A stretch of 64,000 nt of DNA from Oscillatoriales cyanobacterium (GTDB lineage Bacteria > Cyanobacteriota > Cyanobacteriia > Cyanobacteriales > Laspinemataceae). The position numbers were made by a program, and so were the translations under genes. The notes below the pieces were generated by a model that searched no databases, had not been told where the DNA came from, and saw only the letters and a list, made by a program, of their open reading frames with translations. Every line of letters begins with the position of its first letter. Positions within the stretch are counted from its first letter, which is position 1. Location: positions 110,694 through 174,693 of the forward strand of contig JAABRM010000001.1 of the NCBI GenBank assembly GCA_011390955.1, read 5' to 3'. Positions 14,709 through 64,000 of this stretch are shown here, one piece after another.

Positions 14709-14915
14709 ATTTCACCACAGAGACACAGAGAAACATCGAGGAATTATTTGTCAAGGATAAGTAGGTGGGCAGAAATAACCAGAGACCATATCGCAAGAAA
14801 AACTGTCATTCCCGCGAATGCGGGAATCCACAGTCTATCGGCTGGGAACGAAAAGTGCAATTAATTATGTTCACCTACTTATCTCTCTGTGTCCTTTGTG
14901 TCTTTGTGGTGAAAT
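14709..14915. mobile_element. Hairpin repeat element A (TIR TTTCACCACAGAGACACAGAG...) carrying a nested copy of MITE B in its loop
   Basis: Left arm atttcaccacagagacacagagaaaca (14709-) and right arm tctctctgtgtcctttgtgtctttgtggtgaaat (-14915) are inverted repeats. A second, uninterrupted inverted copy lies at 15979-16058. Bases 14760-14879 between the arms are MITE B. Confidence 0.7.
14760..14879. mobile_element. MITE B copy 1 (TIR AGTAGGTGGGCAGAAATAA ... TGTTCACCTACT), non-coding hairpin element
   Basis: Shares terminal inverted repeats and a conserved internal core (aaaactgtcattcccgc ... cgggaatcc ... gaacgaaaagtgcaattaattatgttcacctact) with copies at 19401-19546 and 36502-36652 (inverted). 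Confidence 0.75.
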
Positions 14916-15952
14916 TCTTCAACAGACGCCAAAGTTAAATCTGTGATTAAGGGAAAATGATCGGAACCAATTGCCGGAGTTCGGCGAACTTTTAACACTT
15001 GAAACTCTGGACTGACTAAACAATGGTCGATGGGAATATATAAAAGTGGCTGAAATGTCGGCCAAGTAGGTAAAATACCAAACCCAGCCCGGACATTGTG
15101 CAATTTCGCTTTTTTGACTAAATCTCGATAATAGGGCGACCACATGGTGACATTCATATCTCCGATTAAGATGACCGGATTTTTTAAGGTGGCAGCATAA
15201 TCAGCGATCGCCTCTAATTGGCGGTTTCTTTCCTCAAAATAAATTTGCCCCGTTGCTTTAGAAGGATGTACCGCTATTAGAGATATTAATTGCCCAGAAA
15301 TTTGCAGATTAGCTAATAGGCTTTTTCTGCCGCCTCCTAAAGATTTGACCTGGGGATTTTCTAGGGAAATCCGGCTCAAAATTAGGGTTCCGTCCCGAAA
15401 CCGGGTTTCTTCACCTAAATCTCTGTCACCCAACCAAAATGCTGGTAGAAACCCGGTTTCTATATAGTCGAAGCTGTAGGGGAAAATGTCTGTTAAACCC
15501 GCTTTTAGTTTAGCGGCGATCGCGGTTCCCACCTCGACAAAAACCACAAGATCGGGACGTTCTTTCTGAATCAGGGCGATCGCCGCAGTCGAGTTATCTT
15601 TATATTTATCCATATTCGACAATAACACCCGGAATTCTTGTCCCTGGATATCCTGGTTAAACCAATGATGGGGAAAATACCAGGGGAGAATTTCCCCTAA
15701 ATTAATCACCAAACAAAAGCCACTGAGAATCAGTCCCAACTTTTGTAACTTTTTTTGTAACTTTTGCCGATAGTTGAAGCAAAACTGAAGCAAAAAGAAG
15801 CAGAACGGACATAAGCTGAGAATGAGATATTGCCATTTAAAATGAGCAGCTAATTCCAGATAGAGATGAATTTTTCCCCAATATCCCGCGAGAGAAATCA
15901 AGATTAAACTAATAGAGGCAAAAATAAAGATAATATGCAATAAAAAACGCAT
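14879..15952 (-). CDS. Membrane-anchored endonuclease/exonuclease/phosphatase (EEP, DNase I-like) family protein
   Basis: Three N-terminal TM helices, then an EEP domain: RPDLVVFVEV, GDMNVTMWSP, GSDHFPLITDL. The last ~12 codons (EEFHHKDTKDTER) are encoded by repeat element A, so the C-terminus is repeat-derived. Confidence 0.7.
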   Translation of the reverse strand: MRFLLHIIFIFASISLILISLAGYWGKIHLYLELAAHFKWQYLILSLCPFCFFLLQFCFNYRQKLQKKLQKLGLILSGFCLVINLGEILPWYFPHHWFNQDIQGQEFRVLLSNMDKYKDNSTAAIALIQKERPDLVVFVEVGTAIAAKLKAGLTDIFPYSFDYIETGFLPAFWLGDRDLGEETRFRDGTLILSRISLENPQVKSLGGGRKSLLANLQISGQLISLIAVHPSKATGQIYFEERNRQLEAIADYAATLKNPVILIGDMNVTMWSPYYRDLVKKAKLHNVRAGFGILPTWPTFQPLLYIPIDHCLVSPEFQVLKVRRTPAIGSDHFPLITDLTLASVEEFHHKDTKDTER

Positions 15953-16058: not shown

Positions 16059-16156
16059 CTAGACTTCTAGCAAAACTCTAAAAAGCCCCATTTTTAAGGG
16101 GGGTTGGGGAGATCGATCCGGTATGCAAGCAAAAGGTTTACTATGCCAATCTTAAA

Positions 16157-17056
16157 TTAATTTTCTGTCAGCATCGCCTGTTGTCCTTGGGGGGAAGTGG
16201 CGTAACCGAGAAAATATTGCACTTGCGGACTGGGTGGGTTTTTGTAGGCGTAATAAAGCTGCCTTTGATAGGGATAGGTGGCCGCTTCCGGGGTCAACCC
16301 ATCCACAGGTACGACCCGCACCGTTTGCTGGTTGGCAACTTGAGCGTAGGTGGCGTAACCGATCCCGTTGGTGCCTAATTGTCGCAGTAAGGGAGTCGTG
16401 GCATCTTGCGCCATTGTCGTAATGTTGGCTGTGGTGCCGAAATTTCCTCCTTGTAAGACCAACTCCTTAAATGTCTGATGAGTGCCGCTGATGGCTGGTC
16501 GGTTAATTACCGCGATCGCGCCTGGACTCCCACCCAACTGAGACCAGTCAGCAATCTGACCTTGAAATATTTGCATCACTTGGGCGCTGGTTAAACCTTG
16601 ACGGTAGGGGTTATCTTTGCCCACAACAAGAGCAATTTGGTCTCTGGCTAAGGGTACTGCCATTAATCCTTGACTCTGTTCGGCGCTGGTGAGAGGACGG
16701 GAGATCGCAGCAATGTCAGCGCTGTTGGTGGTTAAGGCTTGAATGCCCCGGTCGGTTCCATTCGCAATAGCAACAGCGCTACTGCCGGGAAATACACTCT
16801 CAAAACCCCGTTTCAGATTTTGATTGATCGTCACCATGCTAGTAGAACCATCAATCCGCACGGTTGTCCCTGGAGGTACAGAGGCGGGGAAAGGAAAGGT
16901 GGCGCTAGTTTGTCCCGGTGGCGGCATAGTTCCCGGAATCATTTCTGTAGTTTGAGGGGAATTTTTTTGTTGCGAAAAGTACCAATATCCAGCACCGCCG
17001 AGAATCAAAAATAGCAGGATAAACAGAATAGGAGGTGGTCCGCTTGCTTTTGCCAT
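16157..17056 (-). CDS. Periplasmic substrate-binding protein, PstS/phosphate-binding family-like, with N-terminal TM anchor and Pro-rich linker
   Basis: N-terminal TM (ILFILLFLILGGAGYWYF), Pro-rich linker, then VRIDGSTSMVTINQNLKRGFESVFPG and ISRPLTSAE, which resemble PstS/SphX-type binding-protein motifs. Confidence 0.5.
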   Translation of the reverse strand: MAKASGPPPILFILLFLILGGAGYWYFSQQKNSPQTTEMIPGTMPPPGQTSATFPFPASVPPGTTVRIDGSTSMVTINQNLKRGFESVFPGSSAVAIANGTDRGIQALTTNSADIAAISRPLTSAEQSQGLMAVPLARDQIALVVGKDNPYRQGLTSAQVMQIFQGQIADWSQLGGSPGAIAVINRPAISGTHQTFKELVLQGGNFGTTANITTMAQDATTPLLRQLGTNGIGYATYAQVANQQTVRVVPVDGLTPEAATYPYQRQLYYAYKNPPSPQVQYFLGYATSPQGQQAMLTEN

Positions 17057-19742: not shown

Positions 19743-21812
19743 TTAATTCTCATTGTTTAAAATATCTTCTAATCTTTGGCCGGGGGGAAGACCGACAAAC
19801 ACGCGATCGCCTGACTCCAAACCACTGAGAATTTGAATATCATTACCAATGGTTGGGCCAATAGTGACAGGACGAAAAACCGCTTGATTTTTCTCATTAG
19901 GAACTAACACCCCCGTTTCACCTTTATTAGTGACAATTGCCACCGTAGGCACGACTAAAGCATTTTTCAATTCATCACCTAAAAACGTCACATCCACATT
20001 CATTCCCGATCGCAATTCCTCCAAACCTGAGTCAATATCAACCCGAACTTCAAATAAAGTCACATCTTGTTCTTTAATTGCTTCGGGAGCAATCAAACGC
20101 ACTTTACCTGTAAAAACTTGGTCAGGATAAGCATCCGCCACAATTTCTACCACTTGACCGGGCTGAATTTGCGTAATATCCGCTTCCGGGACTTTCCCCA
20201 AAACTTCCAATCCTCTAGCCAAAGCCACAATAGAAGTAGAAGTAGCTTGACCCGCACTAGAAGCGGAAGTCGTCGGCGTCACAAACGCGCCCTCGGTGGC
20301 ATATCTTTGAGTAATTTGCCCAGAAAACGGCGCCCGAATAATCGTATCTTCTAGCTGAACCTCCACCTCGCGCAATTGTCCCAGGGCCTCATTCACCTCC
20401 GCTTCTGCTTGAGTAATGGTTTCGGGACGCGGGCCATTTTCTTGCAAAGCCAAAGCCTGTTCAACCTCTTGCACTTGGGCTTCGGCCCTGGCAATTTCCT
20501 CTGGACGCGGGCCATTTTCTTGCAAAGCTAAAGCCTGTTGCGCCTCTTGCACTTGGGCTTCGGCCCTGGCAATTTCCTCTGGACGCGGGCCATTTTCTTG
20601 CAAAGCTAAAGCCTGTTGCGCCTCTTGCACTTGGGCTTCGGCCCTGGCAATTTCCTCTGGACGCGGGCCATTTTCTTGCAAAGCTAAAGCCTGTTGCGCC
20701 TCTTGCACTTGGGCTTCGGCCCTGGCAATTTCCTCTGGACGCGGGCCATTTTCTTGCAAAGCTAAAGCCTGTTGCGCCTCTTGCACTTCCGCTTCCGCTT
20801 GTGTCAGGTCCTCCCGCCGATTTTTTTGCAGTTGTTCTAACTGGCGTTGCGCTTCTTGTAAACTGGCTTGGGCCCGCCGATTTTCCGTCACCGCTTCGTC
20901 CAGGCTATCTTGAGAAATAGCTCCTTCGTCGGCTAATTGCTGATTTCGTTTTCGCCGCACTTCCGTCAATTCCACTCTAGCCTGGGCGTCCACCACCCTT
21001 GCTTCCGCTTGGGCAATTTCCTCAAATCGACTACCGACTTTTACCCCTGTCAGACGGGCTTGGGCTTGGGCTAAACGGGCTCTGGCTTGGGCAATATTTT
21101 CCCTGCGGTTCCCGGCCCGCAATTCGGCTAAACTCGCTTGGGCTTGGGCTAAACGGGCTCTGGCTTGGGCAATGTCTTCTCGGCGCGAACCAGCCCGCAG
21201 TTCCCCTAAACTTTCTTGGGCTTGGGCTAAACGGGCTCTGGCTTGGGCAATGTCTTCCCCACGAGAACCTGCCAGCAGTTCGGCTAAACTCGCTTGGGCT
21301 TGGGCTAAACGAGCTCTGGCTTGGGCAATGTCTTCCCGACGGTTCCCGTTTTCCAGTTCTCGGAGTCGGGCTTCGGCGCGGTTGATTCGAGCTCTAGCTT
21401 GGGCCAGTCGGGCATTCGTATCACTACTTTCCATGATGGCGATAATTTCACCCTGTTCGACGCGATCGCCCTGTTCCACTCGTAACTGTTCAAGGCGTCC
21501 GGCATTTTTGGGGGATAAGTTGACACTTTGGATCGGTTGCACCGTGCCACTGGCTTGAATTCTGACCGTGCGATTTTGGTATTCTACGGCGACCGTGAGT
21601 TCGGCGATCGGATCGGTTTTGGGTTTGCGGCGACCCATGATTCCATATCCAATCGCGCCAAAACCTAACAAAATCACCACTACTAAAGCGATCGCTCCCA
21701 ATTTTTTCATCCCCTGAAATTTTTTAATCTGAGCGGGAAAAGATGCTTTTGGTTCAGGGAAATCAACCTTATTTTCTAACTGAGATTCTTTTTCCGGGGG
21801 AAGTTGCGGCAT
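19743..21812 (-). CDS. devB: HlyD-family membrane fusion protein (DevB-like) with expanded tandem coiled-coil repeats
   Basis: TM anchor (LGAIALVVVILLGFGAIGYGI), a biotinyl/lipoyl-like domain (VRIQASGTVQPIQSVNLSPKNAGRLEQLRVEQGDRVEQGEIIAI) and a C-terminal beta-barrel (PTVAIVTNKGETGVLV). The central part holds ~5 copies of a 22-aa unit (..REDIAQARARLAQAQASLAEL..) and 5 near-identical copies of a 26-aa unit (QENGPRPEEIARAEAQVQEAQQALAL). Confidence 0.8.
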   Translation of the reverse strand: MPQLPPEKESQLENKVDFPEPKASFPAQIKKFQGMKKLGAIALVVVILLGFGAIGYGIMGRRKPKTDPIAELTVAVEYQNRTVRIQASGTVQPIQSVNLSPKNAGRLEQLRVEQGDRVEQGEIIAIMESSDTNARLAQARARINRAEARLRELENGNRREDIAQARARLAQAQASLAELLAGSRGEDIAQARARLAQAQESLGELRAGSRREDIAQARARLAQAQASLAELRAGNRRENIAQARARLAQAQARLTGVKVGSRFEEIAQAEARVVDAQARVELTEVRRKRNQQLADEGAISQDSLDEAVTENRRAQASLQEAQRQLEQLQKNRREDLTQAEAEVQEAQQALALQENGPRPEEIARAEAQVQEAQQALALQENGPRPEEIARAEAQVQEAQQALALQENGPRPEEIARAEAQVQEAQQALALQENGPRPEEIARAEAQVQEVEQALALQENGPRPETITQAEAEVNEALGQLREVEVQLEDTIIRAPFSGQITQRYATEGAFVTPTTSASSAGQATSTSIVALARGLEVLGKVPEADITQIQPGQVVEIVADAYPDQVFTGKVRLIAPEAIKEQDVTLFEVRVDIDSGLEELRSGMNVDVTFLGDELKNALVVPTVAIVTNKGETGVLVPNEKNQAVFRPVTIGPTIGNDIQILSGLESGDRVFVGLPPGQRLEDILNNEN

Positions 21813-22370
21813 GATTTTTTAACTTGGAAAAATAAAGCGATGAAACAACACAAAGATTAACACACTCATGGATTACAGCTTGTTCACCAGTAGGGGGGAT
21901 TCGCGAATCCCCCCTACTTAACACATTGCCCTAAAGCCCTAAAGCCCTCACCCTAAATCGACGGCGGCCTATGCATTAGAGAGGGACTTTGAGAGAAGAT
22001 CGAATTATTTCTGACCAGGCTGTAAGTGAGTGTTTAATCTAACCAATAATATTTTACCAATTATTTTAATTTATTTTAATTTATTTTAGTTCATAAACAG
22101 CAAATTATGCCTATAAGCAAGAAAAATGCTCTGAGTATTTCAGGCAAATTAAGCCAGGGGCAATTTTATTTTATCAAATTTAAAATCCATTAAATCCGAT
22201 TAAATTGTTAAAAATATTTTGGCTTGATGCCGCTGCATGAATTAACCCCATTGCCGCGAAAGGTTCAATTTTGTAACAATTATTTACAATAAGCTCAGAT
22301 TTATCTTAACCCAAAATTTGATTAATTTAACCGCGATCGGAGAAATTAAATCGGTGCGGCACAAAGAGTC

Positions 22371-56833: not shown

Positions 56834-58408
56834 CTAACACTTTAAATGCCTGCAAACTGTTAACACTGCCGGGATAAAACCAGTCAGTTGGTTGTGGTCT
56901 AAGTAGAGCCGTGATAATTTGGTCAGATTACCTAACTCTGCGGGGATAGAACCAGTCAGTTGATTGTTGTTCAGATAGAGACTCGACAATTTGGTCAGAT
57001 TACCTAACTCTGCGGGGATAGAACCAGTCAGTTGATTGTGGTACAGATACAGGTATGACAAGTTAGTCAGATGGCCTAATTCTGTGGGAATAGAACCAGT
57101 CAGTTGGTTATAGTTCAGGGAGAGGTATGACAAGTTAGTCAGATGGCCTAATTCTGTGGGAATAGAACCAGTCAGTTGGTTGTGGTTCAGGCCGAGACTC
57201 GATAATTTGGTCAGATGGCCTAATTCTGTGGGAATAGAACCAGTCAGTTGATTGTGGTTCAGGGAGAGGTATGACAAGTTAGTCAGATGGCCTAATTCTG
57301 TGGGAATAGAACCAGTCAGTTGATTGTGGTTCAGGGAGAGGTATGACAAGTTAGTCAGATGGCCTAATTCTGTGGGAATAGAACCAGTCAGTTGGTTATA
57401 GTTCAGGGAGAGGTATGACAAGTTAGTCAGATGGCCTAATTCTGTGGGAATAGAACCAGTCAGTTGATTGTGGTTCAGAGAGAGGTTCGTTACCCGATCG
57501 CCCTCTATCGTCACCCCATACCAGCCACTAACAGCAGAAGCATCAGGCAGTTCTTCGCTGTTAAAGTCCCAATCTTTCCAGCCTTTGTTATTATTCCAAC
57601 TCGGCCCATTTGTACTTTGATAAAGAGCCTTGAGAGCGGCATAATCATTCCCATTAAGAGGAATTAATGCTCCCTCACCCAATCCTCTGCCATAAGTTTT
57701 CACCTTTCCCTCCGACAAAACCGACAAGGAGGTCTCGATCTCCACAGTTTTCAGCGTTAACTCCCAGTCTTTCTCCCAAGTTGCCGCCCCCCCGAAAGAC
57801 TTAGAAGTGGCAATCTCAGGGTTTACTGTGGCTTGACTGCTGCAATTTACCGATAAACTCTTCTCTCCCATCATCGGCAGCCGCGTTACAATCGTGGAGC
57901 AAGAGTTTGTCGAGTTTCCACCGTTGCAGTAGGGGGCGTAACGATTGAGCGTTTTATTACTTAGTTGAGTGTTTCTCTGTAGATAAAGTTGGAAAGTTTC
58001 GCGCATTCTCGGTGGTAAGTTATCTATGGCATCGGCAAGAAATAACTCAAGTTCTCGCAAATTTTCCGGGTCAGGTGTTTCCTTCTGCGTAACCCCATCA
58101 TTTTTTGCGGAGGCGATCGCTTCTAAGTCCATAGATTGCACTGGATTTCTGCGGCGTTGGCGCCGGATATCCATGCAGAGGTTATAGGTCAGTCTAGTCA
58201 ACCATGCTTTAAAATTTGAAATCGGTCGATCGGTTGTTCTCAGTTTCTCTATGGCTTTTACCATTGCTTCGCTGAGAACATACTCCGCATCAGTGGGATT
58301 ACCTCCCATCCAATTCAGGCAACAACCATAAAGATAATTTCTATGCTTTGGCCATTGCTGCCAAAAAATTACATTGATATCGAGAATTCTGTTCTGCCTA
58401 GCCATCAT
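56834..58408 (-). CDS. Chimeric ORF: ECF sigma-2 region (paralog of 55267..56070) with sigma-4 replaced by an LRRNT-capped plant-type leucine-rich-repeat domain
   Basis: First ~170 aa are near-identical to the neighbouring sigma factor up to ...LPPRMRETFQLYLQ, then diverge. This is followed by ALKALYQSTNGPSWNNNKGWKDW...WYGVTIEG (LRR N-terminal cap) and ≥9 perfect 24-aa repeats LSLNHNQLTGSIPTELGHLTNLSY. Confidence 0.65.
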   Translation of the reverse strand: MMARQNRILDINVIFWQQWPKHRNYLYGCCLNWMGGNPTDAEYVLSEAMVKAIEKLRTTDRPISNFKAWLTRLTYNLCMDIRRQRRRNPVQSMDLEAIASAKNDGVTQKETPDPENLRELELFLADAIDNLPPRMRETFQLYLQRNTQLSNKTLNRYAPYCNGGNSTNSCSTIVTRLPMMGEKSLSVNCSSQATVNPEIATSKSFGGAATWEKDWELTLKTVEIETSLSVLSEGKVKTYGRGLGEGALIPLNGNDYAALKALYQSTNGPSWNNNKGWKDWDFNSEELPDASAVSGWYGVTIEGDRVTNLSLNHNQLTGSIPTELGHLTNLSYLSLNYNQLTGSIPTELGHLTNLSYLSLNHNQLTGSIPTELGHLTNLSYLSLNHNQLTGSIPTELGHLTKLSSLGLNHNQLTGSIPTELGHLTNLSYLSLNYNQLTGSIPTELGHLTNLSYLYLYHNQLTGSIPAELGNLTKLSSLYLNNNQLTGSIPAELGNLTKLSRLYLDHNQLTGFIPAVLTVCRHLKC

Positions 58409-59019: not shown

Positions 59020-59150
59020 AATTAACAATTGATAATTGACAATTGACAATTAAACACCACGATCGATTAACAATTGATAATTGATAATTGATAATTGATA
59101 ATTATCAATTATCAATTGTTAATTATCAATTATTCCCTCTGCGCCTGAAG
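59020..59150. repeat. Palindromic (AATTGAT)n / (ATCAATT)n heptamer array downstream of cydB
   Basis: aattgataattgacaattgacaatt...aattgataattgataattgataattgataattatcaattatcaattgttaattatcaatt. The same family occurs at 60255-60335, 38288-38343 and 6585-6655. Confidence 0.85.
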
Positions 59151-60195: not shown

Positions 60196-60309
60196 AACAA
60201 TTTGTGAAAGATAATAGGGAAAGGGAAGAAAGGGTGTAGGGTGTAGGGGAAGAGAGAATAATTGATAATTGATAATTGATAATTAAACATAATTATCAAT
60301 TGTTAATTA

Positions 60310-61701
60310 TCAATTGTTAATTGTTTCCAATTCTTCTCCGGGAACTGGGAGTTCTAAATTTGGGCCTTTGCGAATAATTCGGCTACCAAAAAATAGGGCA
60401 CAAATAAACAAAATAGAATAGACCACCGCAAAGAGAGTTAAAGAGGTTAAAACATTGCTTGGGGGCAAATTGCTGGCCGCATCTACGGTACGGATTTGCT
60501 CGTAAAGTGTCCAAGGTTGGCGTCCCACACAGCGAACAATCCAGCCAGATTCTACGGCAATATATCCTAAAGGTGCGGCAAAAATCCAGGTCGCCATTAA
60601 CCAACTTTGTTGACCAATTTTATCTTCAGCTAATTGACCTCGGATCCACTGCACTACAGTCCAAAACATTAAACCAGCTAAGAAGAAACCGATCGCCACC
60701 ATAATCCGAAAAGAATAATAGATTAATCCCACCATGTGCGGGCGATCTTCGGGTCGCCATTCTTTCAAACCCCGTACAGGTTCCGAAAGTTTTGGTTTCA
60801 GTTCCAGGATATATCCCAAAGCGTTAGGAATGGCGATTTCCCAATCATTTTTTTCAGCGGTTTCATTGGGGAGAGAAACCATACTCCAAGGGGCAGAATT
60901 GCCAGCGGGAATTGTTTCCCATTGGGCTTCCATTGCGGCGAGTTTTGCCGGTTGGTGTTGATAGACTTGTTCGGCACTTAAATGGCCAATATAAATTTGC
61001 AATGGGGCAACAGCGATCGCGGCGGCTAAAACAATTTTGAAAGACTTACTGAAAAACCCTTGATGGCGACCTTTGAGAATATACCAAGCGCTAATTCCGC
61101 CAATCACAAATAACGAAGTCTCCAAAGTGGCAAAAAACATATGGAGGACGCTATTCAGCATAAAAGGATTAAAAATTGCTTGAAAATAATCGCTGACCAC
61201 AAATTTGCCATTCACCATTTCCCCACCAGCGGGAGTTTGTAGCCAAGAATTCGCCGCAATAATCCAAAATGTTGAGAGGTTAGCGCCAAAAGCTACCATA
61301 ATTGTAGCGAAATAATGAATCGCTGGATTGACTTTTTCCCAGCCAAATAGCATAATGCCTAGAAAGCCCGCTTCTAGCATAAATGCCATAGAAGCTTCAA
61401 AGCCTAAAACACTGCCAAAAAAGTCCCCAACTGCTTCAGAAAATGGCGCCCAATTCGTGCCAAATTGAAATTCCATCGGGACTCCAGAAGCTACCCCAAT
61501 GCCAAAGTTGAGCACATATAGTTTTGCCCAAAAACGGGCATGATGATAGTAGTCAGGATTCCGAGTTTTTAACCAGAGTCCTTCGACAATTACCAAATAA
61601 ATGGCCATACCTGTAGTCAATACAGGCCATAGCATATGAAAGATAGCCGTGAGTGCAAATTGCATCCGCGAAAGCACTACGGTGTCTGAGAGAAAGTCCA
61701 T
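60310..61701 (-). CDS. cydA: Cytochrome bd ubiquinol oxidase subunit I
   Basis: MDFLSDTVVLSRMQFALTAIFHMLWPVLTTGMAIYL with heme-ligand context and Q-loop. Immediately upstream of cydB on the same strand. Confidence 0.9.
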   Translation of the reverse strand: MDFLSDTVVLSRMQFALTAIFHMLWPVLTTGMAIYLVIVEGLWLKTRNPDYYHHARFWAKLYVLNFGIGVASGVPMEFQFGTNWAPFSEAVGDFFGSVLGFEASMAFMLEAGFLGIMLFGWEKVNPAIHYFATIMVAFGANLSTFWIIAANSWLQTPAGGEMVNGKFVVSDYFQAIFNPFMLNSVLHMFFATLETSLFVIGGISAWYILKGRHQGFFSKSFKIVLAAAIAVAPLQIYIGHLSAEQVYQHQPAKLAAMEAQWETIPAGNSAPWSMVSLPNETAEKNDWEIAIPNALGYILELKPKLSEPVRGLKEWRPEDRPHMVGLIYYSFRIMVAIGFFLAGLMFWTVVQWIRGQLAEDKIGQQSWLMATWIFAAPLGYIAVESGWIVRCVGRQPWTLYEQIRTVDAASNLPPSNVLTSLTLFAVVYSILFICALFFGSRIIRKGPNLELPVPGEELETINN

Positions 61702-62052
61702 AATTGCCTTGATGATTTAGATCAACATTTATGGATTATACTACATATATAAGGAAATGGGAAATTAACAGAAAATTGATCTGACCGAATTTGTGGGCAA
61801 GGGGGTTTAGGTTCGCCATTTTCCGCCCGAAGCTGTGGGTCAAGGGAAAGGATACAGGCTATGGATCGTAATAGGTAATATATAGATATACTAGAGATAT
61901 TTTTTGATAGCGATGTAATTTTATAGCATATTTGTTCTAGGTTTTGATTTTTTTTTTGATTTAAATAAATTTAATATTTTTTTAACAATTTACTAAATCG
62001 CAAATTGCTAGAATTATTATAGCATTCCAACCTAAATACGCGATCGCCCACC

Positions 62053-64000
62053 ATGCAGATATTCACAAACTACATCAAAGCCATTGAAACTTCACTTCAG
62101 TCAGGAAACGCCACTGAACATACTTATCGCCCTGCGTTAAAAACTTTACTGGAGTCTTTTAATTCGGGGATTATAGCGGTTAATGAACCGAAGCGGATTA
62201 AATGCGGTGCCCCGGATTTTGTCATTACCGCTGGACAAATTACCCAGGGACATATCGAAGCCAAAGATATTGGGGTTTCTTTGAACAAAGAAGCGAAAAG
62301 TCAGCAACTCAAGCGCTATTTTAACGCCTTACCTAACCTAATTTTAACCGACTATTTAGAATTTCGCTGGTATGTGAACGGAGAATTAAGGTTAACGGCA
62401 AAAATTGCTCAATTTGGCCAAAAAAATCAACTGCAACCCAACCCAGCAGAAATCAATAAATTGGCGCAACTTTTGACCCAATTTTTGCAAATCGCTACGC
62501 CTCAAGTTAGCAGTCCCAAAGAGTTAGCCAAAAGGATGGCTAGTTTAGCCCAACTAATTCGCGATGCGATTAATACGGCATTGGCAGAAAAGGAAAAAGG
62601 GGGAATGCTGCGGGAGCAATTAGAGTCTTTTCAGAAAGTTTTGATTAAAGATTTAACTCCGAGTCAGTTTGCGGATATGTACGCGCAGACCATTTGTTAT
62701 GGGCTATTTGCCGCGCGGTGTAATACCGATAAACCAGCAACTTTTTCGCGAGAAACTGCCGCGTTTCAGTTGCCGAAAACTAATCCTTTTCTGCGGAGTA
62801 TTTTTGGCCAAATTGCCGGACCAGATTTAGATGAAAGAATTGTTTGGGCGGTGGATGATTTGGCGACGATTTTGCGATTAACGGATATGGCGGAAATTCT
62901 GAAAAATTTTGGTCAGCGAACTCGGCAAGAAGACCCGGTGGTGCATTTTTATGAGACGTTTCTGGCAGAATACGATCCAAAAATGCGGGAGTCACGCGGG
63001 GTTTATTATACTCCTGAACCTGTGGTGTCTTATATTATTCGTAGTGTGGATTATATTCTGAAACAAAAGTTTGGCATTAGTCAGGGATTAGCAGATGCGC
63101 GGAAAATTAAAGTGTCGGATCCCTCCAACCCCCCAACCCCCCTTGTTAAGGGGGGCAAGGGAGGATCTAAAAAGGGGGAGAATTCTGTGTCGGATCCCCC
63201 CCAACCCCCCTTAACAAGGGGGGAGAATCAAGAAATTCATCAGGTATTAATTCTGGATCCGGCAGTGGGAACGGGGACATTTTTACATGGGGCGATCGAC
63301 CATATTTATGAGAGTTTTAAACAGCAAAAGGGGATGTGGTCGAGTTATGTGAGTCAGCATTTATTACCTCGGTTATTTGGGTTTGAGTTGTTGATGGCAC
63401 CCTATACGGTTGCTCACATGAAATTGGGGTTGCAGTTGCAGGATTTGGGTTATGATTTTAGTTCTGATGAACGGTTAAGAATTTATTTGACCAATACTCT
63501 GCAAGAAGCGTTTCAAATTCCACCTGCGGATGGATTTTTAAACCGAATTCGGGATGAAGCAGAAGCGGCAAAAAAGGTTAAGGAAGATGTTCCCGTGATG
63601 GTGATTTTGGGAAATCCACCTTATGCTTATGATTCAGTGAATACAGACCCTTGGATTGTGGGATTAGTCCGCGATTATTATCAAGTGGATGGGGAATCTT
63701 TGGGAGAACGCAACCCGAAAGGCTTGTTAGATGATTATGTGAAATTTATTCGATTTGCGGAACATCGGATTGATTTAACAGGTTATGGAGTTTTGGCATT
63801 TATTACCAATCATGGTTATTTAGATAATCCCACTTTTCGGGGTATGCGTCAGCATTTGATGCAAACCTTTGATGAGATTTATCTGTTAGACCTACATGGA
63901 AATAGTAAGAAGAAAGAAGTTTGTCCCGATCGCACCCCCGACCAGAATGTGTTTGATATTCAGCAAGGGGTGGCAATTGGTATTTTTATTAAATCTGCCA
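62053..64000 (+). CDS. Type IIG restriction-modification enzyme (MmeI-like): N-terminal PD-(D/E)xK nuclease fused to gamma-class N6-adenine methyltransferase. Partial; continues beyond the window.
   Basis: Own translation (ORF runs off the window end): nuclease motif IKCGAPDFVITAGQITQGHIEAKDIG (D...EAK); MTase motifs VYYTPEPVV, ILDPAVGTGTFL (motif I) and VILGNPPYA (motif IV, NPPY). Confidence 0.75.
   Translation, partial: MQIFTNYIKAIETSLQSGNATEHTYRPALKTLLESFNSGIIAVNEPKRIKCGAPDFVITAGQITQGHIEAKDIGVSLNKEAKSQQLKRYFNALPNLILTDYLEFRWYVNGELRLTAKIAQFGQKNQLQPNPAEINKLAQLLTQFLQIATPQVSSPKELAKRMASLAQLIRDAINTALAEKEKGGMLREQLESFQKVLIKDLTPSQFADMYAQTICYGLFAARCNTDKPATFSRETAAFQLPKTNPFLRSIFGQIAGPDLDERIVWAVDDLATILRLTDMAEILKNFGQRTRQEDPVVHFYETFLAEYDPKMRESRGVYYTPEPVVSYIIRSVDYILKQKFGISQGLADARKIKVSDPSNPPTPLVKGGKGGSKKGENSVSDPPQPPLTRGENQEIHQVLILDPAVGTGTFLHGAIDHIYESFKQQKGMWSSYVSQHLLPRLFGFELLMAPYTVAHMKLGLQLQDLGYDFSSDERLRIYLTNTLQEAFQIPPADGFLNRIRDEAEAAKKVKEDVPVMVILGNPPYAYDSVNTDPWIVGLVRDYYQVDGESLGERNPKGLLDDYVKFIRFAEHRIDLTGYGVLAFITNHGYLDNPTFRGMRQHLMQTFDEIYLLDLHGNSKKKEVCPDRTPDQNVFDIQQGVAIGIFIKSA

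What the first reader, a model, noticed from the sequence alone, without database searches (positions are those of the whole stretch)
62053..64000. Type IIG RM enzyme carrying an in-frame palindromic mini-insertion between MTase motifs X and I
- The MmeI-like nuclease–methyltransferase ORF contains, between VYYTPEPVV and ILDPAVGTG, a ~120-bp segment made of two tandem units. Each starts GTGTCGGATCC and contains a CCCCCCTTGTTAAGGGGGG-type perfect palindrome.
- The segment is translated as KVSDPSNPPTPLVKGGKGGSKKGENSVSDPPQPPLTRGENQ, a Pro/Gly-rich linker, without breaking the frame.
- This matches the behaviour of cyanobacterial small dispersed repeats that insert into coding regions while preserving frame.
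- A similar G/C palindrome (CCCCATTTTTAAGGGGGG) occurs intergenically at ~16085.
- The gene abuts cydAB with an AATTGAT repeat array in between, and runs off the window.
Basis: partly seen in the sequence, partly recalled or inferred. Interest (0 to 1): 0.55.

Follow-up and report, generated by a model that had tools for sequence, protein, structure and literature searches.

The report
Hairpin repeat inserted in-frame in restriction enzyme
A small hairpin-forming DNA repeat that is scattered through cyanobacterial genomes sits in-frame inside a restriction-modification enzyme gene, adding a floppy proline/glycine loop without breaking the gene; this kind of event is known, and the unusual part is that the same loop carries different repeats in related enzymes.

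Summary
Window 63112-63228 holds two units, each GTGTCG + GATCC... + CCCCCCTTnnnAAGGGGGG. They are read in-frame between motif X (63001-63027) and motif I (63247-63276) of a DrdV/MmeI-like single-chain restriction-modification gene.

The segment is an insertion, not an ancestral linker:
- Most of the 120 closest homologues have 63 aa between these motifs. The window and P0001 have 93, P0002 has 78, and P0003 and P0049 have 63.
- L001 (two units) and L004 (none) are 100% identical in DNA over most of the ~1 kb upstream of the loop.

The unit belongs to a dispersed repeat, GATCCCC-CCAACCCCCC-TTnnnAA-GGGGGG. A scan found at least 118 stretches, almost all in Cyanobacteria of many orders. About 15% of the copies lie in-frame inside real genes (NRPS, kinases, STAND NTPases, another methyltransferase). 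A fuller copy sits at window 16060-16140.

Insert-bearing alleles show dN/dS of 0.11-0.31, so the gene stays under purifying selection.

A second clade of the same enzyme carries at least three unrelated hairpin elements at the same loop, in alleles 95-100% identical on either side.

Verdict: a tolerated, Rickettsia-RPE-like selfish insertion. It is a new member of a known kind, in a notably hypervariable loop.

The parts
62053..64000 (+). 5' 649 codons of a single-chain restriction-modification gene (DrdV/MmeI-like, Type IIL/IIG). It runs off the window. Full-length orthologues are 1063-1113 aa and carry a C-terminal Type_ISP_C specificity domain.
62212..62265 (+). Putative PD-(D/E)xK nuclease motif (APDFVI ... 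IEAKD). D55, E69 and K71 are invariant in 33 homologues.
   Evidence: Translation; invariant columns. The motif assignment is by inspection, not a domain hit.
63001..63027 (+). Methyltransferase motif X (VYYTPEPVV).
   Evidence: aligned to DrdV 282-327.
63112..63117 (+). GTGTCG (Val-Ser), the host-gene flank immediately 5' of unit 1. It is repeated at 63187-63192 before unit 2.
63118..63167 (+). Unit 1, a complete minimal element: GATCCCTCCAACCCCCCAACCCCCCTTGTTAAGGGGGGCAAGGGAGGATC. It is an imperfect 50-nt palindrome with GATC ends. The hairpin core is 63137-63155, and the left arm carries an extra CCCCCCAA (8-nt period, 2.8 copies).
63174..63183 (+). GGGGGAGAAT, the first copy of a 10-nt direct repeat. 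Together with its second copy (63219-63228) it brackets the 45 nt (63184-63228) that the one-unit allele L003 lacks.
63187..63228 (+). Unit 2: GTGTCG + GATCCCCCCCAACCCCCCTTAACAAGGGGGG + AGAAT. The hairpin core 63205-63223 is the exact reverse complement of the unit 1 core. The right arm is missing or degenerate.
63247..63276 (+). Methyltransferase motif I (LILDPAVGTG).
63603..63614 (+). Methyltransferase motif IV (NPPY).
16060..16140 (-). Intergenic, decayed copy of a longer MITE that carries the same central module. Read on the minus strand it is ...CCGGATCGATCTCCCCAACCCCCCTTAAAAATGGGGCTTTTTAGAGTTTTGCTAGAAGTCTA. It matches the Laspinema/Oscillatoria form TAGACCTCTTGCAAAA..GATCCCCCCAACCCCCCTTnnnAAGGGGGG..TTTTGCAAGAGGTCTA.

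Best explanation
The 117-nt segment is a copy of a non-coding, hairpin-forming dispersed repeat that is widespread in Cyanobacteria. It became lodged in the gene for a DrdV/MmeI-like restriction-modification enzyme, in the variable surface loop between the motif X helix and the motif I strand of the methyltransferase domain.

Inferred reasons it persists:
- Its length is a multiple of three.
- Its C and G runs read as Pro and Gly, with no stop codon in this frame. The consensus has no stop in any of the six frames unless the 3-nt loop supplies one.
- The loop it occupies already varies in length and sequence.

The second unit arose either by local partial duplication or as the second half of a two-hairpin element. 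Loss and gain of units, and exchange of the loop patch by homologous recombination between alleles, then produced the 0-, 1- and 2-unit alleles seen among close relatives.

Shown: the segment is an insertion, it belongs to a dispersed family, it sits in-frame, and the gene remains under purifying selection. Inferred: it is selectively near-neutral 'selfish DNA', the protein loop is flexible and exposed, and the enzyme is still active. How the element moves is unknown.
For: 1. Insertion, not ancestral:
- The motif X to motif I interval is 63-64 aa in 100 of 119 homologues measured. It is 93 aa in the window and P0001, 78 in P0002, and 63 in P0003 and P0049.
- The DNA alignment shows the extra 45 + 45 nt.
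- L001 (2 units) and L004 (0 units) are 98.5-100% identical in every 200-nt block of the first 1000 alignment columns of the gene, and 100% and 99.5% in columns 1200-1600.
- Pfam's N6_Mtase match is split in two in P0001 but continuous in P0003.
- DrdV has only about 7 residues at this position.

2. Dispersed family:
- CCAACCCCCCTTNNNAAGGGGGG gives at least 118 stretches in one-genome-per-species GTDB contigs. 77 of the 80 titled records are Cyanobacteria, from many orders.
- The unsearched flank is conserved as GATCCCC (67-98% at positions -7 to -3, 98-100% at -2 and -1) and drops to background at -8.
- Many copies pair with a second hairpin that ends GGGGGGATC.

3. In-frame tolerance is general:
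- 20 of 128 hits lie in ORFs open for at least 60 codons on both sides, and all six frames are used.
- For 16 of the 18 distinct ORFs, Pfam finds bona fide domains.

4. Foreign composition: the insert has GC 0.59 against 0.42 for the rest of the gene, and Pro is CCC in 7 of 8 codons against 7 of 30.

5. The gene is still constrained: dN/dS is 0.11 (window vs L003), 0.17 (L001 vs L003) and 0.31 (window vs L001). P0001 is a full-length intact 1113-aa ORF carrying the same insert.

6. The insert is the lowest-confidence coil in the AlphaFold model, with block-mean pLDDT 26-30 over residues 361-390. This is weak support because the model is poor overall.
Against: - No target-site duplication, transposase or empty-versus-filled junction cleanly defines a transposition event.
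- GTGTCG precedes both units, which favours local duplication of unit plus flank over two separate insertions.
- L004's ancestral-type loop sits in an allele otherwise identical to the two-unit L001. Recombination, not excision or insertion, must explain at least that difference.
- The element core is 46/46 identical between the window and L003, although the preceding 52 nt differ at 6 positions. This hints at homogenisation, recent patch transfer or constraint on the hairpin, which pure neutrality does not predict.
- Activity of the enzyme was not and could not be tested. Two related alleles (L130, L131) are pseudogenes.
- The window's own gene is truncated by the window end.
Confidence: 0.8

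Rival explanations
1. The loop is a selected, hypervariable cassette. Hairpin elements are recruited or exchanged at this site because varying the enzyme surface near the cofactor pocket is advantageous, for example to escape phage anti-restriction proteins. Alternatively, an element-encoded mechanism targets this site specifically.
For: - A second clade of the same enzyme family carries three unrelated inserts at the same junction (after K-I, before M-H-K-V). They are a GATC-type (L126/L127), a GTAC-type (L124/L128) and a GCCCTCA...TGAGGGC-type (L125, L132, L133).
- P0092, P0042 and P0012 are 95-100% identical in the 100-aa blocks on either side of the loop yet differ completely within it.
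- Two phylogenetically separate clades were hit within about 4 codons of each other.
- Another Eco57I/MmeI-type methyltransferase (L060) also carries the element in-frame.
- The hairpin core is conserved 46/46 between alleles that otherwise diverge.
Against: - The gene is a recombination mosaic. TRD and mid-gene blocks drop to 45-80% identity between otherwise identical alleles. Old, non-homologous loop alleles embedded in recombinationally homogenised flanks would give the same picture without any targeting.
- No conserved target sequence is seen at the junctions.
- One permissive loop per protein would also concentrate the surviving insertions.
- There is no functional evidence.
Confidence: 0.12
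2. The segment arose in place, by slippage and hairpin-templated expansion of a pre-existing Pro/Gly loop, and only resembles repeats found elsewhere by convergence.
For: - TRF finds 2.8 copies of CCCCCCAA within unit 1.
- Unit 2 repeats the host flank GTGTCG and is bracketed by a 10-nt direct repeat, so local duplication and slippage clearly acted here.
- L130's loop (GATACCCCCCAAGG...) could be read as a precursor.
Against: - The segment matches a 30-nt consensus (GATCCCCCCAACCCCCCTTnnnAAGGGGGG) present in at least 118 stretches from dozens of cyanobacterial genera and almost nowhere else. About 1 match is expected by chance for 20 specified bases in 596 Gb.
- A fuller copy lies 47 kb away in the same window.
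- The ancestral loop (L004, L129) has no such sequence.
Confidence: 0.04
3. The C6/C7 and G6 homopolymer runs make the gene a phase-variable (contingency) locus that switches the restriction enzyme on and off by frameshifting.
For: - The insert introduces C7 (63196), C6 (three times) and G6 (twice) tracts into a restriction-modification gene.
- From general knowledge, Type III and Type IIG restriction-modification genes in other bacteria are often phase-variable through such tracts.
Against: - Tract lengths are identical in the window, L001 and L002, and every allele recovered is in-frame.
- Tracts of 6-7 nt are short for efficient slippage.
- The pseudogenised relatives are broken elsewhere: a TAA in the nuclease domain of L130 and a split near the TRD in L131.
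Confidence: 0.03
4. The linker is ancestral to the family, or is an assembly artefact.
For: None beyond its presence in the sequence.
Against: - 100 of 119 homologues measured lack it.
- It is present in independent assemblies: the window, two JGI metagenomes (L001, L002) and a Logan assembly (L003).
Confidence: 0.01

Closest known systems
Rickettsia palindromic elements (RPEs; Ogata et al. 2000, as summarised in PMC3184786 and PMC10969869)
   Same: - Short palindromic non-autonomous repeats found both between genes and inserted in-frame inside unrelated protein-coding genes.
- They add a peptide segment without destroying the ORF.
- Presence varies between orthologues.
   Different: - Unrelated sequence and host phylum.
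- RPEs are about 100-150 bp. This module is 30-50 nt, or 75-150 nt in two-hairpin forms.
- It encodes Pro/Gly-rich coil.
- Here several different element families occupy the same loop in near-identical alleles.
Cyanobacterial small dispersed repeats (SDR1-8; Elhai et al. 2008, Genome Res 18:1484, known here only through citations in PMC5861425 and PMC4390886, plus memory)
   Same: Very small (tens of nt), hairpin-capable, dispersed and apparently mobile repeats in cyanobacterial genomes.
   Different: [quoted passage not shown]
- SDR5 inserts inside HIP1 (PMC4390886), and no HIP1 target is seen here.
- Sequence identity to any SDR could not be checked because the paper is not held.
MITEs of cyanobacteria (Nezha, MaeMITEs, Anabaena MITEa-e; PMC3184786, PMC10969869)
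   Same: - Terminal inverted repeats and stable hairpins, with no coding capacity.
- Some Anabaena MITEs form ORF fusions with host genes.
- The 16060-16140 copy and the Laspinema copies carry an outer TIR (TAGACCTCTTGCAAAA) around the module.
   Different: - The RM-gene copy has only the inner module, far shorter than Nezha (130-170 bp) or the MaeMITEs (150-435 bp).
- No target-site duplication or parent IS was identified.
REP/REPIN elements mobilised by RAYT (TnpA_REP) (PMC3733652, PMC6006769, PMC3116915)
   Same: GC-rich 20-40-nt stem-loops, often in inverted pairs (compare the two-hairpin form). Cyanobacteria do encode RAYT subclasses.
   Different: - The ends are GATC, not the GTAG or CGTC tags that define the two REP superfamilies.
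- No RAYT linkage was tested.
- REPs are by definition extragenic.
DrdV (PDB 7LO5/7LVV) and MmeI-family Type IIL/IIG restriction-modification enzymes
   Same: - Single polypeptide with an N-terminal PD-ExK nuclease, a gamma-class N6-adenine methyltransferase (motifs X, I, IV) and a C-terminal specificity domain.
- P0001 matches DrdV at E 5e-42.
   Different: - The cyanobacterial family has a 26-aa loop where DrdV has about 7 residues, and here it is 56 aa.
- The specificity domain is annotated Type_ISP_C, but there is no helicase, so this is not a Type ISP enzyme.

Membership tests
Type IIL/IIG (MmeI/DrdV-like) single-chain RM enzyme | Gamma-class N6-adenine methyltransferase with motifs in the order X - I - IV (NPPY) | tested here: met
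   VYYTPEPVV, LDPAVGTG and GNPPY are present in that order. Pfam N6_Mtase gives E 2.8e-8 above its cut-off; Eco57I and MmeI_Mtase match below their cut-offs.
Type IIL/IIG (MmeI/DrdV-like) single-chain RM enzyme | N-terminal PD-(D/E)xK nuclease fused in the same polypeptide | tested here: inconclusive
   The motif PDFVI...IEAKD has D55, E69 and K71 invariant in 33 homologues. No Pfam nuclease domain hit was obtained, and the AlphaFold model is of low confidence.
Type IIL/IIG (MmeI/DrdV-like) single-chain RM enzyme | Sequence homology to a characterised member | tested here: met
   P0001 matches DrdV 7LO5 at E 5.1e-42 over the methyltransferase and C-terminal regions. LlaBIII and LlaGI match only in the methyltransferase/TRD part.
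Type IIL/IIG (MmeI/DrdV-like) single-chain RM enzyme | C-terminal target-recognition domain, and no helicase/translocase (which separates it from Type ISP) | tested here: met
   In the full-length orthologues P0001 and P0003, Type_ISP_C gives E 1e-90 to 1e-93 and no helicase domain is found; total length is 1063-1113 aa. This part lies beyond the window end for the window's own gene.
Type IIL/IIG (MmeI/DrdV-like) single-chain RM enzyme | AdoMet-dependent cleavage at a fixed distance and one-strand methylation | not testable with these tools
   Needs biochemistry or a methylome.
In-frame palindromic selfish repeats (RPE-like behaviour) | Dispersed multi-copy family with a conserved palindromic consensus | tested here: met
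   At least 118 stretches were found. The consensus is GATCCCCCCAACCCCCCTTnnnAAGGGGGG, with a sharp left boundary.
In-frame palindromic selfish repeats (RPE-like behaviour) | Presence/absence polymorphism at the site among orthologues | tested here: met
   Alleles with 0, 1 and 2 units exist, and L001 and L004 are otherwise identical.
In-frame palindromic selfish repeats (RPE-like behaviour) | Copies inside unrelated genes that preserve the reading frame | tested here: met
   20 of 128 hits lie in long ORFs, and Pfam domains confirm real genes for 16 of the 18 distinct ORFs.
In-frame palindromic selfish repeats (RPE-like behaviour) | The inserted peptide lies on the protein surface and the host protein stays functional | tested here: inconclusive
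   The insert is modelled as coil with block-mean pLDDT 26-30, but the model is poor overall (pLDDT 54). dN/dS of 0.11-0.31 indicates continuing constraint. No activity data exist.
Elhai SDR families (Nostocaceae) | Restricted to Nostocaceae; 21-27 nt; SDR5 inserted within HIP1 | tested here: not met
   The module is found across cyanobacterial orders and is at least 30 nt long, and there is no HIP1 at the junction. The family definitions are taken from PMC5861425 and PMC4390886. Sequence comparison with the SDR consensi was not possible.
MITE | Terminal inverted repeats | tested here: met
   The ends are GATCCC(T/C)CC...GG(A/G)GGATC in unit 1 and in L075, L126 and L080. The 16060-16140 copy and the Laspinema copies carry an outer TIR, TAGACCTCTTGCAAAA.
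MITE | Target-site duplication and a related autonomous IS/transposase | tested here: inconclusive
   GTGTCG (6 nt) and GGGGGAGAAT (10 nt) direct repeats are present but are equally explained by local duplication or deletion. No parent IS was sought.
REP/REPIN (RAYT-associated) | GTAG or CGTC terminal tag, with a cognate RAYT gene | tested here: not met
   The ends are GATC. RAYT linkage was not tested. A separate GTAG-tagged palindrome does exist at 21890-21917.
Phase-variable contingency locus | Tract-length variation between close strains that shifts the reading frame | tested here: not met
   Tracts are identical in the window, L001 and L002, and all alleles are in-frame. Read-level heterogeneity is not testable here.

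The most novel reading that the evidence does not exclude
The loop between motifs X and I of this cyanobacterial Type IIL restriction enzyme family is a dedicated exchange site. Different hairpin elements are swapped in and out at the same codon junction in otherwise near-identical alleles. This would happen either because an element-associated mechanism targets or replaces resident hairpins site-specifically, or because diversifying selection (for example escape from phage anti-restriction proteins) favours a changing surface next to the cofactor pocket. The pan-cyanobacterial GATC-C6-AA-C6 hairpin module would then be a so-far undescribed vehicle for protein-loop diversification, not mere junk.
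Probability: 0.12. Interest if true: 0.7.

Novelty: new member of a known kind. Interest (0 to 1): 0.42.

Why it matters
In-frame colonisation of genes by tiny palindromic repeats is best known from Rickettsia. This case shows the same behaviour for a short GATC-ended C6/G6 hairpin module that is shared across cyanobacterial orders. I could not find it named in the searchable literature.

About one copy in seven sits inside a real gene, including NRPS adenylation domains, kinases, STAND NTPases and DNA methyltransferases. That matters in three practical ways:
- Annotation: split domain hits and spurious low-complexity linkers.
- Comparative analysis of natural-product and defence genes.
- Protein engineering, because these sites mark naturally permissive loops.

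The restriction-enzyme loop that carries three unrelated elements in 95-100% identical alleles offers a compact natural system. It could be used to ask whether such repeats move by site-directed replacement, and whether they diversify defence proteins.

Tried and rejected
- Rfam scan of 62800-63500 at E <= 1. Only sub-threshold generic hairpin matches (miRNA precursors and the like, all far below gathering scores), so this is no known RNA family.
- Viral contigs. 7 hits to the 23-nt pattern, but none has the GATC prefix and the flanks have GC 0.48-0.66 (five of seven at 0.62-0.66) with little or no HIP1. There is no sign of a cyanophage vector.
- Metagenome scan with a degenerate pattern for the upstream flank. 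Only 5 loci, all clade-2 alleles of insert types already seen, so no new states.
- Elhai et al. 2008 (the SDR paper). Not held by DOI or PMC id, so no sequence comparison with SDR1-8 was possible.
- Full-text searches for the element's sequence strings and for in-frame cyanobacterial repeats found nothing specific.
- AlphaFold2 of P0001 with a 33-sequence alignment. Mean pLDDT 54 and pTM 0.40, too poor for a fold search or for placing the loop in 3D. It is used only as weak support that the insert is coil.
- The window's own genome was not among the genome-contig hits. The organism was inferred only from the CydB cluster (>= 90% identity), which includes Planktothricoides raciborskii.
- Order of events. 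I considered that unit 2 is an independent insertion, that unit 2 is a duplication of unit 1, or that both units are halves of one two-hairpin element with L003 as a deletion derivative. The data (GTGTCG repeated, 10-nt direct repeats, a flipped loop, unit 2 closer to the family consensus than unit 1) do not discriminate between these.
- The NJ tree places 0-unit P0003 inside the insert-bearing group. This is explained by recombination mosaicism, not by precise excision.
Full report
**1. The observation**

The + strand ORF starting at ATG 62053 is open for 649 codons to the window end. A HIP1 site, GCGATCGC, lies at 62040-62047. Between VYYTPEPVV (63001-63027, motif X) and LILDPAVGTG (63247-63276, motif I) lies KVSDPSNPPTPLVKGGKGGSKKGENSVSDPPQPPLTRGENQ.

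The repeated features are far beyond chance:
- GTGTCGGATCCC occurs at 63112 and 63187. Chance expectation is 0.11 per window, and 0 of 100 shuffles gave two or more.
- CCCCCCTTnnnAAGGGGGG occurs at 63137 and 63205, with a 2-mismatch copy at 16085. Chance expectation is 0.01.

The anatomy in more detail:
- Unit 1 is a complete 50-nt imperfect palindrome with GATC at both ends (63118-63167): GATCCCTCCAACCCCCCAA-CCCCCCTTGTTAAGGGGGG-CAAGGGAGGATC.
- Unit 2 (63193-63228) has the left arm and the hairpin but only AGAAT(C) on the right.
- The two hairpin cores are exact reverse complements (loop GTT against AAC). As RNA, the 141-nt region folds to -61.6 kcal/mol (z = -2.6), with the two cores paired in a 19-bp stem.
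- A 10-nt direct repeat, GGGGGAGAAT (63174-63183 and 63219-63228), brackets the 45 nt that the one-unit allele lacks.

One sub-claim is wrong in location. AATTGAT heptamer arrays exist at 59072-59131 and 60260-60315, on either side of cydB. The spacer between cydA and this gene has a single AATTGAT and no tandem array.

**2. The gene**

- Pfam finds N6_Mtase above its cut-off, with Eco57I and MmeI_Mtase below theirs.
- Full-length orthologues are 1063-1113 aa and add a strong Type_ISP_C specificity domain, with no helicase.
- The best solved relative is the Type IIL enzyme DrdV (7LO5, E 5e-42). The Type ISP enzymes LlaBIII and LlaGI match only in the methyltransferase/TRD part.
- The N-terminus carries PDFVI...IEAKD, a PD-ExK-like motif invariant in 33 homologues.

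The family is confined to cyanobacteria among the best 120 hits. The window's CydB falls in a cluster (>= 90% identity) with Planktothricoides raciborskii, so the source is probably an Oscillatoriales cyanobacterium of that group.

**3. Insertion or ancestral?**

I measured the interval from GVYYTP to DPAVGTG in 119 homologues.
- It is 63-64 aa in 100 of them, with the loop PNPKGEGTIE or similar.
- It is 93 aa in the window and P0001, 78 in P0002, and 63 in P0003 and P0049, the closest relatives (84-89% identity).

DNA of these alleles shows that L003 (P0002) has unit 1 only, and L004/L005 (P0003) have an ancestral-type loop with no trace of the element. L130 (P0049) has GATACCCCCCAAGG..., which matches the first 12 nt of the element and looks like a remnant.

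L001 (two units) and L004 (none) are 98.5-100% identical in every 200-nt block of the first 1000 alignment columns, and 100% and 99.5% identical in columns 1200-1600. Pfam's N6_Mtase match is continuous in P0003 but split in P0001. DrdV has only about 7 residues at this position. The insert is also compositionally foreign, with GC 0.59 against 0.42 and Pro encoded by CCC in 7 of 8 codons against 7 of 30.

The segment is an insertion.

**4. What was inserted**

About one match would be expected by chance for 20 specified bases in 596 Gb. Of the 80 titled records, 77 are Cyanobacteria. They include Nostoc, Calothrix, Scytonema, Laspinema, Microcoleus, Okeania, Limnoraphis, Crocosphaera, Microcystis, Halothece and Chamaesiphon.

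In register:
- The seven unsearched bases upstream are GATCCCC (67-98% at positions -7 to -3, 98-100% at -2 and -1), falling to background at -8. The next base downstream is C in 78% of copies.
- The loop triplet varies.
- About a third of copies (39 of 113) have a second C-run/G-run hairpin within 70 nt, often ending GGGGGGTTAGGGGGGATC. The full element is then a larger palindrome with GATC ends.
- One-hairpin forms also occur, for example L075: GATCCCCCCAACCCCCCTTAGTAAGGGGGGCGAAGGGGGGATC. Unit 1 of the window is one of these.

In Laspinema and Oscillatoria the module sits at the centre of a roughly 90-nt MITE with outer inverted repeats, TAGACCTCTTGCAAAA. Window 16060-16140 is a decayed intergenic copy of exactly that form.

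No Rfam family matches. The few viral-contig hits lack the GATC prefix and look unrelated.

**5. In-frame residence is a general property of this family**

Of 128 hits, 20 (in 18 distinct ORFs) lie in reading frames open for at least 60 codons on both sides, and all six frames are used. The peptides include DPPQPPLxRG, IPPTPLxKG, DPPNPP..GG, APLxKGGWGD, PPxxRGVGG and SPPYQGGLGG. Pfam confirms real domains for 16 of the 18:
- NRPS adenylation domains (L012, L007) and an NRPS methyltransferase-PCP linker (L072)
- a Pkinase-AAA_16-GAF-histidine kinase protein (two copies, L048)
- STAND/AAA_35-WD40 proteins (L050, L037, L094)
- Peptidase_U32, Orn/Lys/Arg decarboxylase, Mur ligase, an OprB porin, a NACHT-HEAT protein and a TPR protein
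- a 1310-aa Eco57I/MmeI-type methyltransferase of Limnoraphis robusta (L060), where a two-hairpin copy sits between ...FFHWSVEFPDVF and FDCVLGNPPWER

By inspection, the consensus has no stop codon in any frame unless the loop triplet supplies one. This is the behaviour described for Rickettsia palindromic elements and a few other repeats (PMC3184786, PMC10969869).

**6. Is the host gene still in use?**

Among insert-bearing alleles, dN/dS is 0.11 (window vs L003), 0.17 (L001 vs L003) and 0.31 (window vs L001). P0001 is an intact 1113-aa ORF. This argues that the insert is tolerated.

An AlphaFold2 model of P0001 is poor overall (pLDDT 54). It puts residues 355-392 in coil, with the lowest confidence in the model (block means 26-30 over 361-390), between helix 322-338 and the motif I strand. 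That is weak support only. Two related alleles are pseudogenes for other reasons: L130 has an in-frame TAA in the nuclease domain, and L131 has the loop deleted and the gene split.

**7. How the 0/1/2-unit alleles arose**

The gene is a recombination mosaic. Blocks after motif IV and in the TRD fall to 45-80% identity between alleles that are identical elsewhere, and the window is closer to L130 than to L001 there. L004's ancestral-type loop inside an L001-identical background must come from patch exchange, not from precise excision.

GTGTCG precedes both units but is not part of the family consensus, which suggests that unit 2 is a local duplication. Against that, unit 2 is closer to the family consensus than unit 1, and its loop is flipped. 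Alternatively, both units are halves of one two-hairpin element, and L003 is a deletion between the 10-nt direct repeats. I cannot decide between these.

One unexplained point remains. The left arm plus hairpin is 46/46 identical between the window and L003, although the preceding 52 nt differ at 6 positions. This suggests recent patch transfer, homogenisation from other copies, or constraint on the hairpin.

**8. The same loop in another clade**

A second clade of the family includes Pseudanabaena sp. lw0831 and freshwater metagenome alleles. It has inserts at the same place, directly after K-I and before M-H-K-V, and the ancestral loop is gone. The inserts are of three kinds:
- a GATC-type two-hairpin element of the same family (L126: CGATCCCCCCTAGCCCCCCTTAATAAGGGGGGG ... 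GCCCCCCTTGATAAGGGGGGTGGGGGGGATC), with a collapsed version in L127
- a GTAC-type with two or three hairpins (L124, L128, L134, L136)
- an unrelated GCCCTCATCCCC...GGGTGAGGGC type encoding PSP..GEG..GEGFRVRA (L125, L132, L133)

P0092, P0042 and P0012 are 95-100% identical in the 100-aa blocks on either side of the loop yet share nothing within it. P0009 (insert) and P0013 (empty) are 94-100% identical.

In a neighbour-joining tree, this clade and the window's clade are separated by many empty-loop lineages, so there were at least two independent colonisations. Two readings fit. Either the loop is the single most permissive site in a highly recombining gene, with old non-homologous loop alleles in homogenised flanks, or it is a targeted or selected exchange site. 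I favour the first and give the second about 0.12.

**9. Comparison with known things, and verdict**

The phenomenon, a small palindromic repeat inserted in-frame in a coding gene, is known from RPEs and from some MITE, ERIC and BOX fusions.

Membership is less clear:
- Elhai SDRs: not shown to be one.
- REPs: not a member of the two tagged REP superfamilies, because the ends are GATC rather than GTAG or CGTC (PMC3733652).
- MITEs: it has MITE-like terminal repeats, but no demonstrated target-site duplication or parent IS.

I found no description of this module in the searchable literature. That is absence in a limited library, not proof of novelty.

I rate it a new member of a known kind, of moderate interest. 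The added value is threefold: a widely shared cyanobacterial module, its frequent in-frame residence in large multidomain and defence proteins, and the hypervariable restriction-enzyme loop.

Noticed in passing
window 16060-16140: Intergenic decayed MITE between two minus-strand ORFs (14879..15952 and 16157..17056). It has outer TAGAC..GCAAAA-type inverted repeats and the same central GATC/C-run hairpin module as the RM-gene insert. It matches copies in Laspinema and Oscillatoria genomes.
   Followed up: partly
window 21890-21917: A 28-nt perfect palindrome, GTAGGGGGGATTCGCGAATCCCCCCTAC, with a GTAG tag (REP-like in the sense of PMC3733652). It is intergenic, upstream of ORF 19743..21812 (-).
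   Followed up: no
window 59072-59131 and 60260-60315: AATTGAT heptamer arrays, each a direct run of 3-4 units followed by an inverted run (ATCAATT), so each forms a long AT-rich hairpin. One lies 3' of cydB and the other between cydB and cydA. AATTGAT is also about 2-fold over-represented window-wide (50 observed against 25.6 expected).
   Followed up: partly
window ~63450-63850 (gene alignment columns 1400-1800): The RM gene is a recombination mosaic. In this stretch the window is only 67-81% identical to L001 but 96% identical to L130, whereas upstream it is 95-99% identical to both. TRD blocks in the relatives drop to 45-60%.
   Followed up: partly
L060:3620-7549 (Limnoraphis robusta BA-68): A 1310-aa Eco57I/N6_Mtase/MmeI_Mtase-type protein carries a two-hairpin copy of the same element in-frame at aa ~759, between ...FFHWSVEFPDVF and FDCVLGNPPWER. 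This is a second DNA methyltransferase colonised by the family.
   Followed up: partly
L130:1680-4910 and L131:711-3973: Two relatives of the RM gene are pseudogenes. L130 has an in-frame TAA in the nuclease domain (..TEYL*FRWYV..) and a loop that looks like an element remnant. L131 has the whole loop deleted (KI-SD-MHKV) and the C-terminal domain split into a separate ORF.
   Followed up: partly
L124, L126, L127, L128, L129 (downstream of the RM gene): In the second clade the RM gene is followed immediately, with overlapping stop and start, by one or two nucleotidyltransferase (NTP_transf_2/Polbeta) + HEPN pairs, and in L128 by ParE/RelE-type toxin genes. This is a defence/toxin-antitoxin island context that is absent from the window's clade, where cydA lies upstream and Ser/Thr kinases lie downstream in L001.
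   Followed up: no
L020:7850-7960 (Floridaenema fluviatile): Three head-to-tail copies of the module (GATCCCCCCCAACCCCCCTTATTAAGGGGGGCTTTT) with a period of about 35 nt. The module can therefore also form tandem arrays.
   Followed up: no
window 56834-58408 (-): A 524-aa ORF whose N-terminus looks like an ECF-type sigma factor, by eye (..AWLTRLTYNLCMDIRRQRRR.., ..LPPRMRETFQLY..). It is fused to about nine near-identical 24-aa leucine-rich repeats (NHNQLTGSIPTELGHLTNLSYLSL).
   Followed up: no
window-wide; 62040-62047: HIP1 (GCGATCGC) occurs 67 times in 64 kb, about 1 per kb. One copy lies 5 nt upstream of the RM gene's ATG.
   Followed up: no
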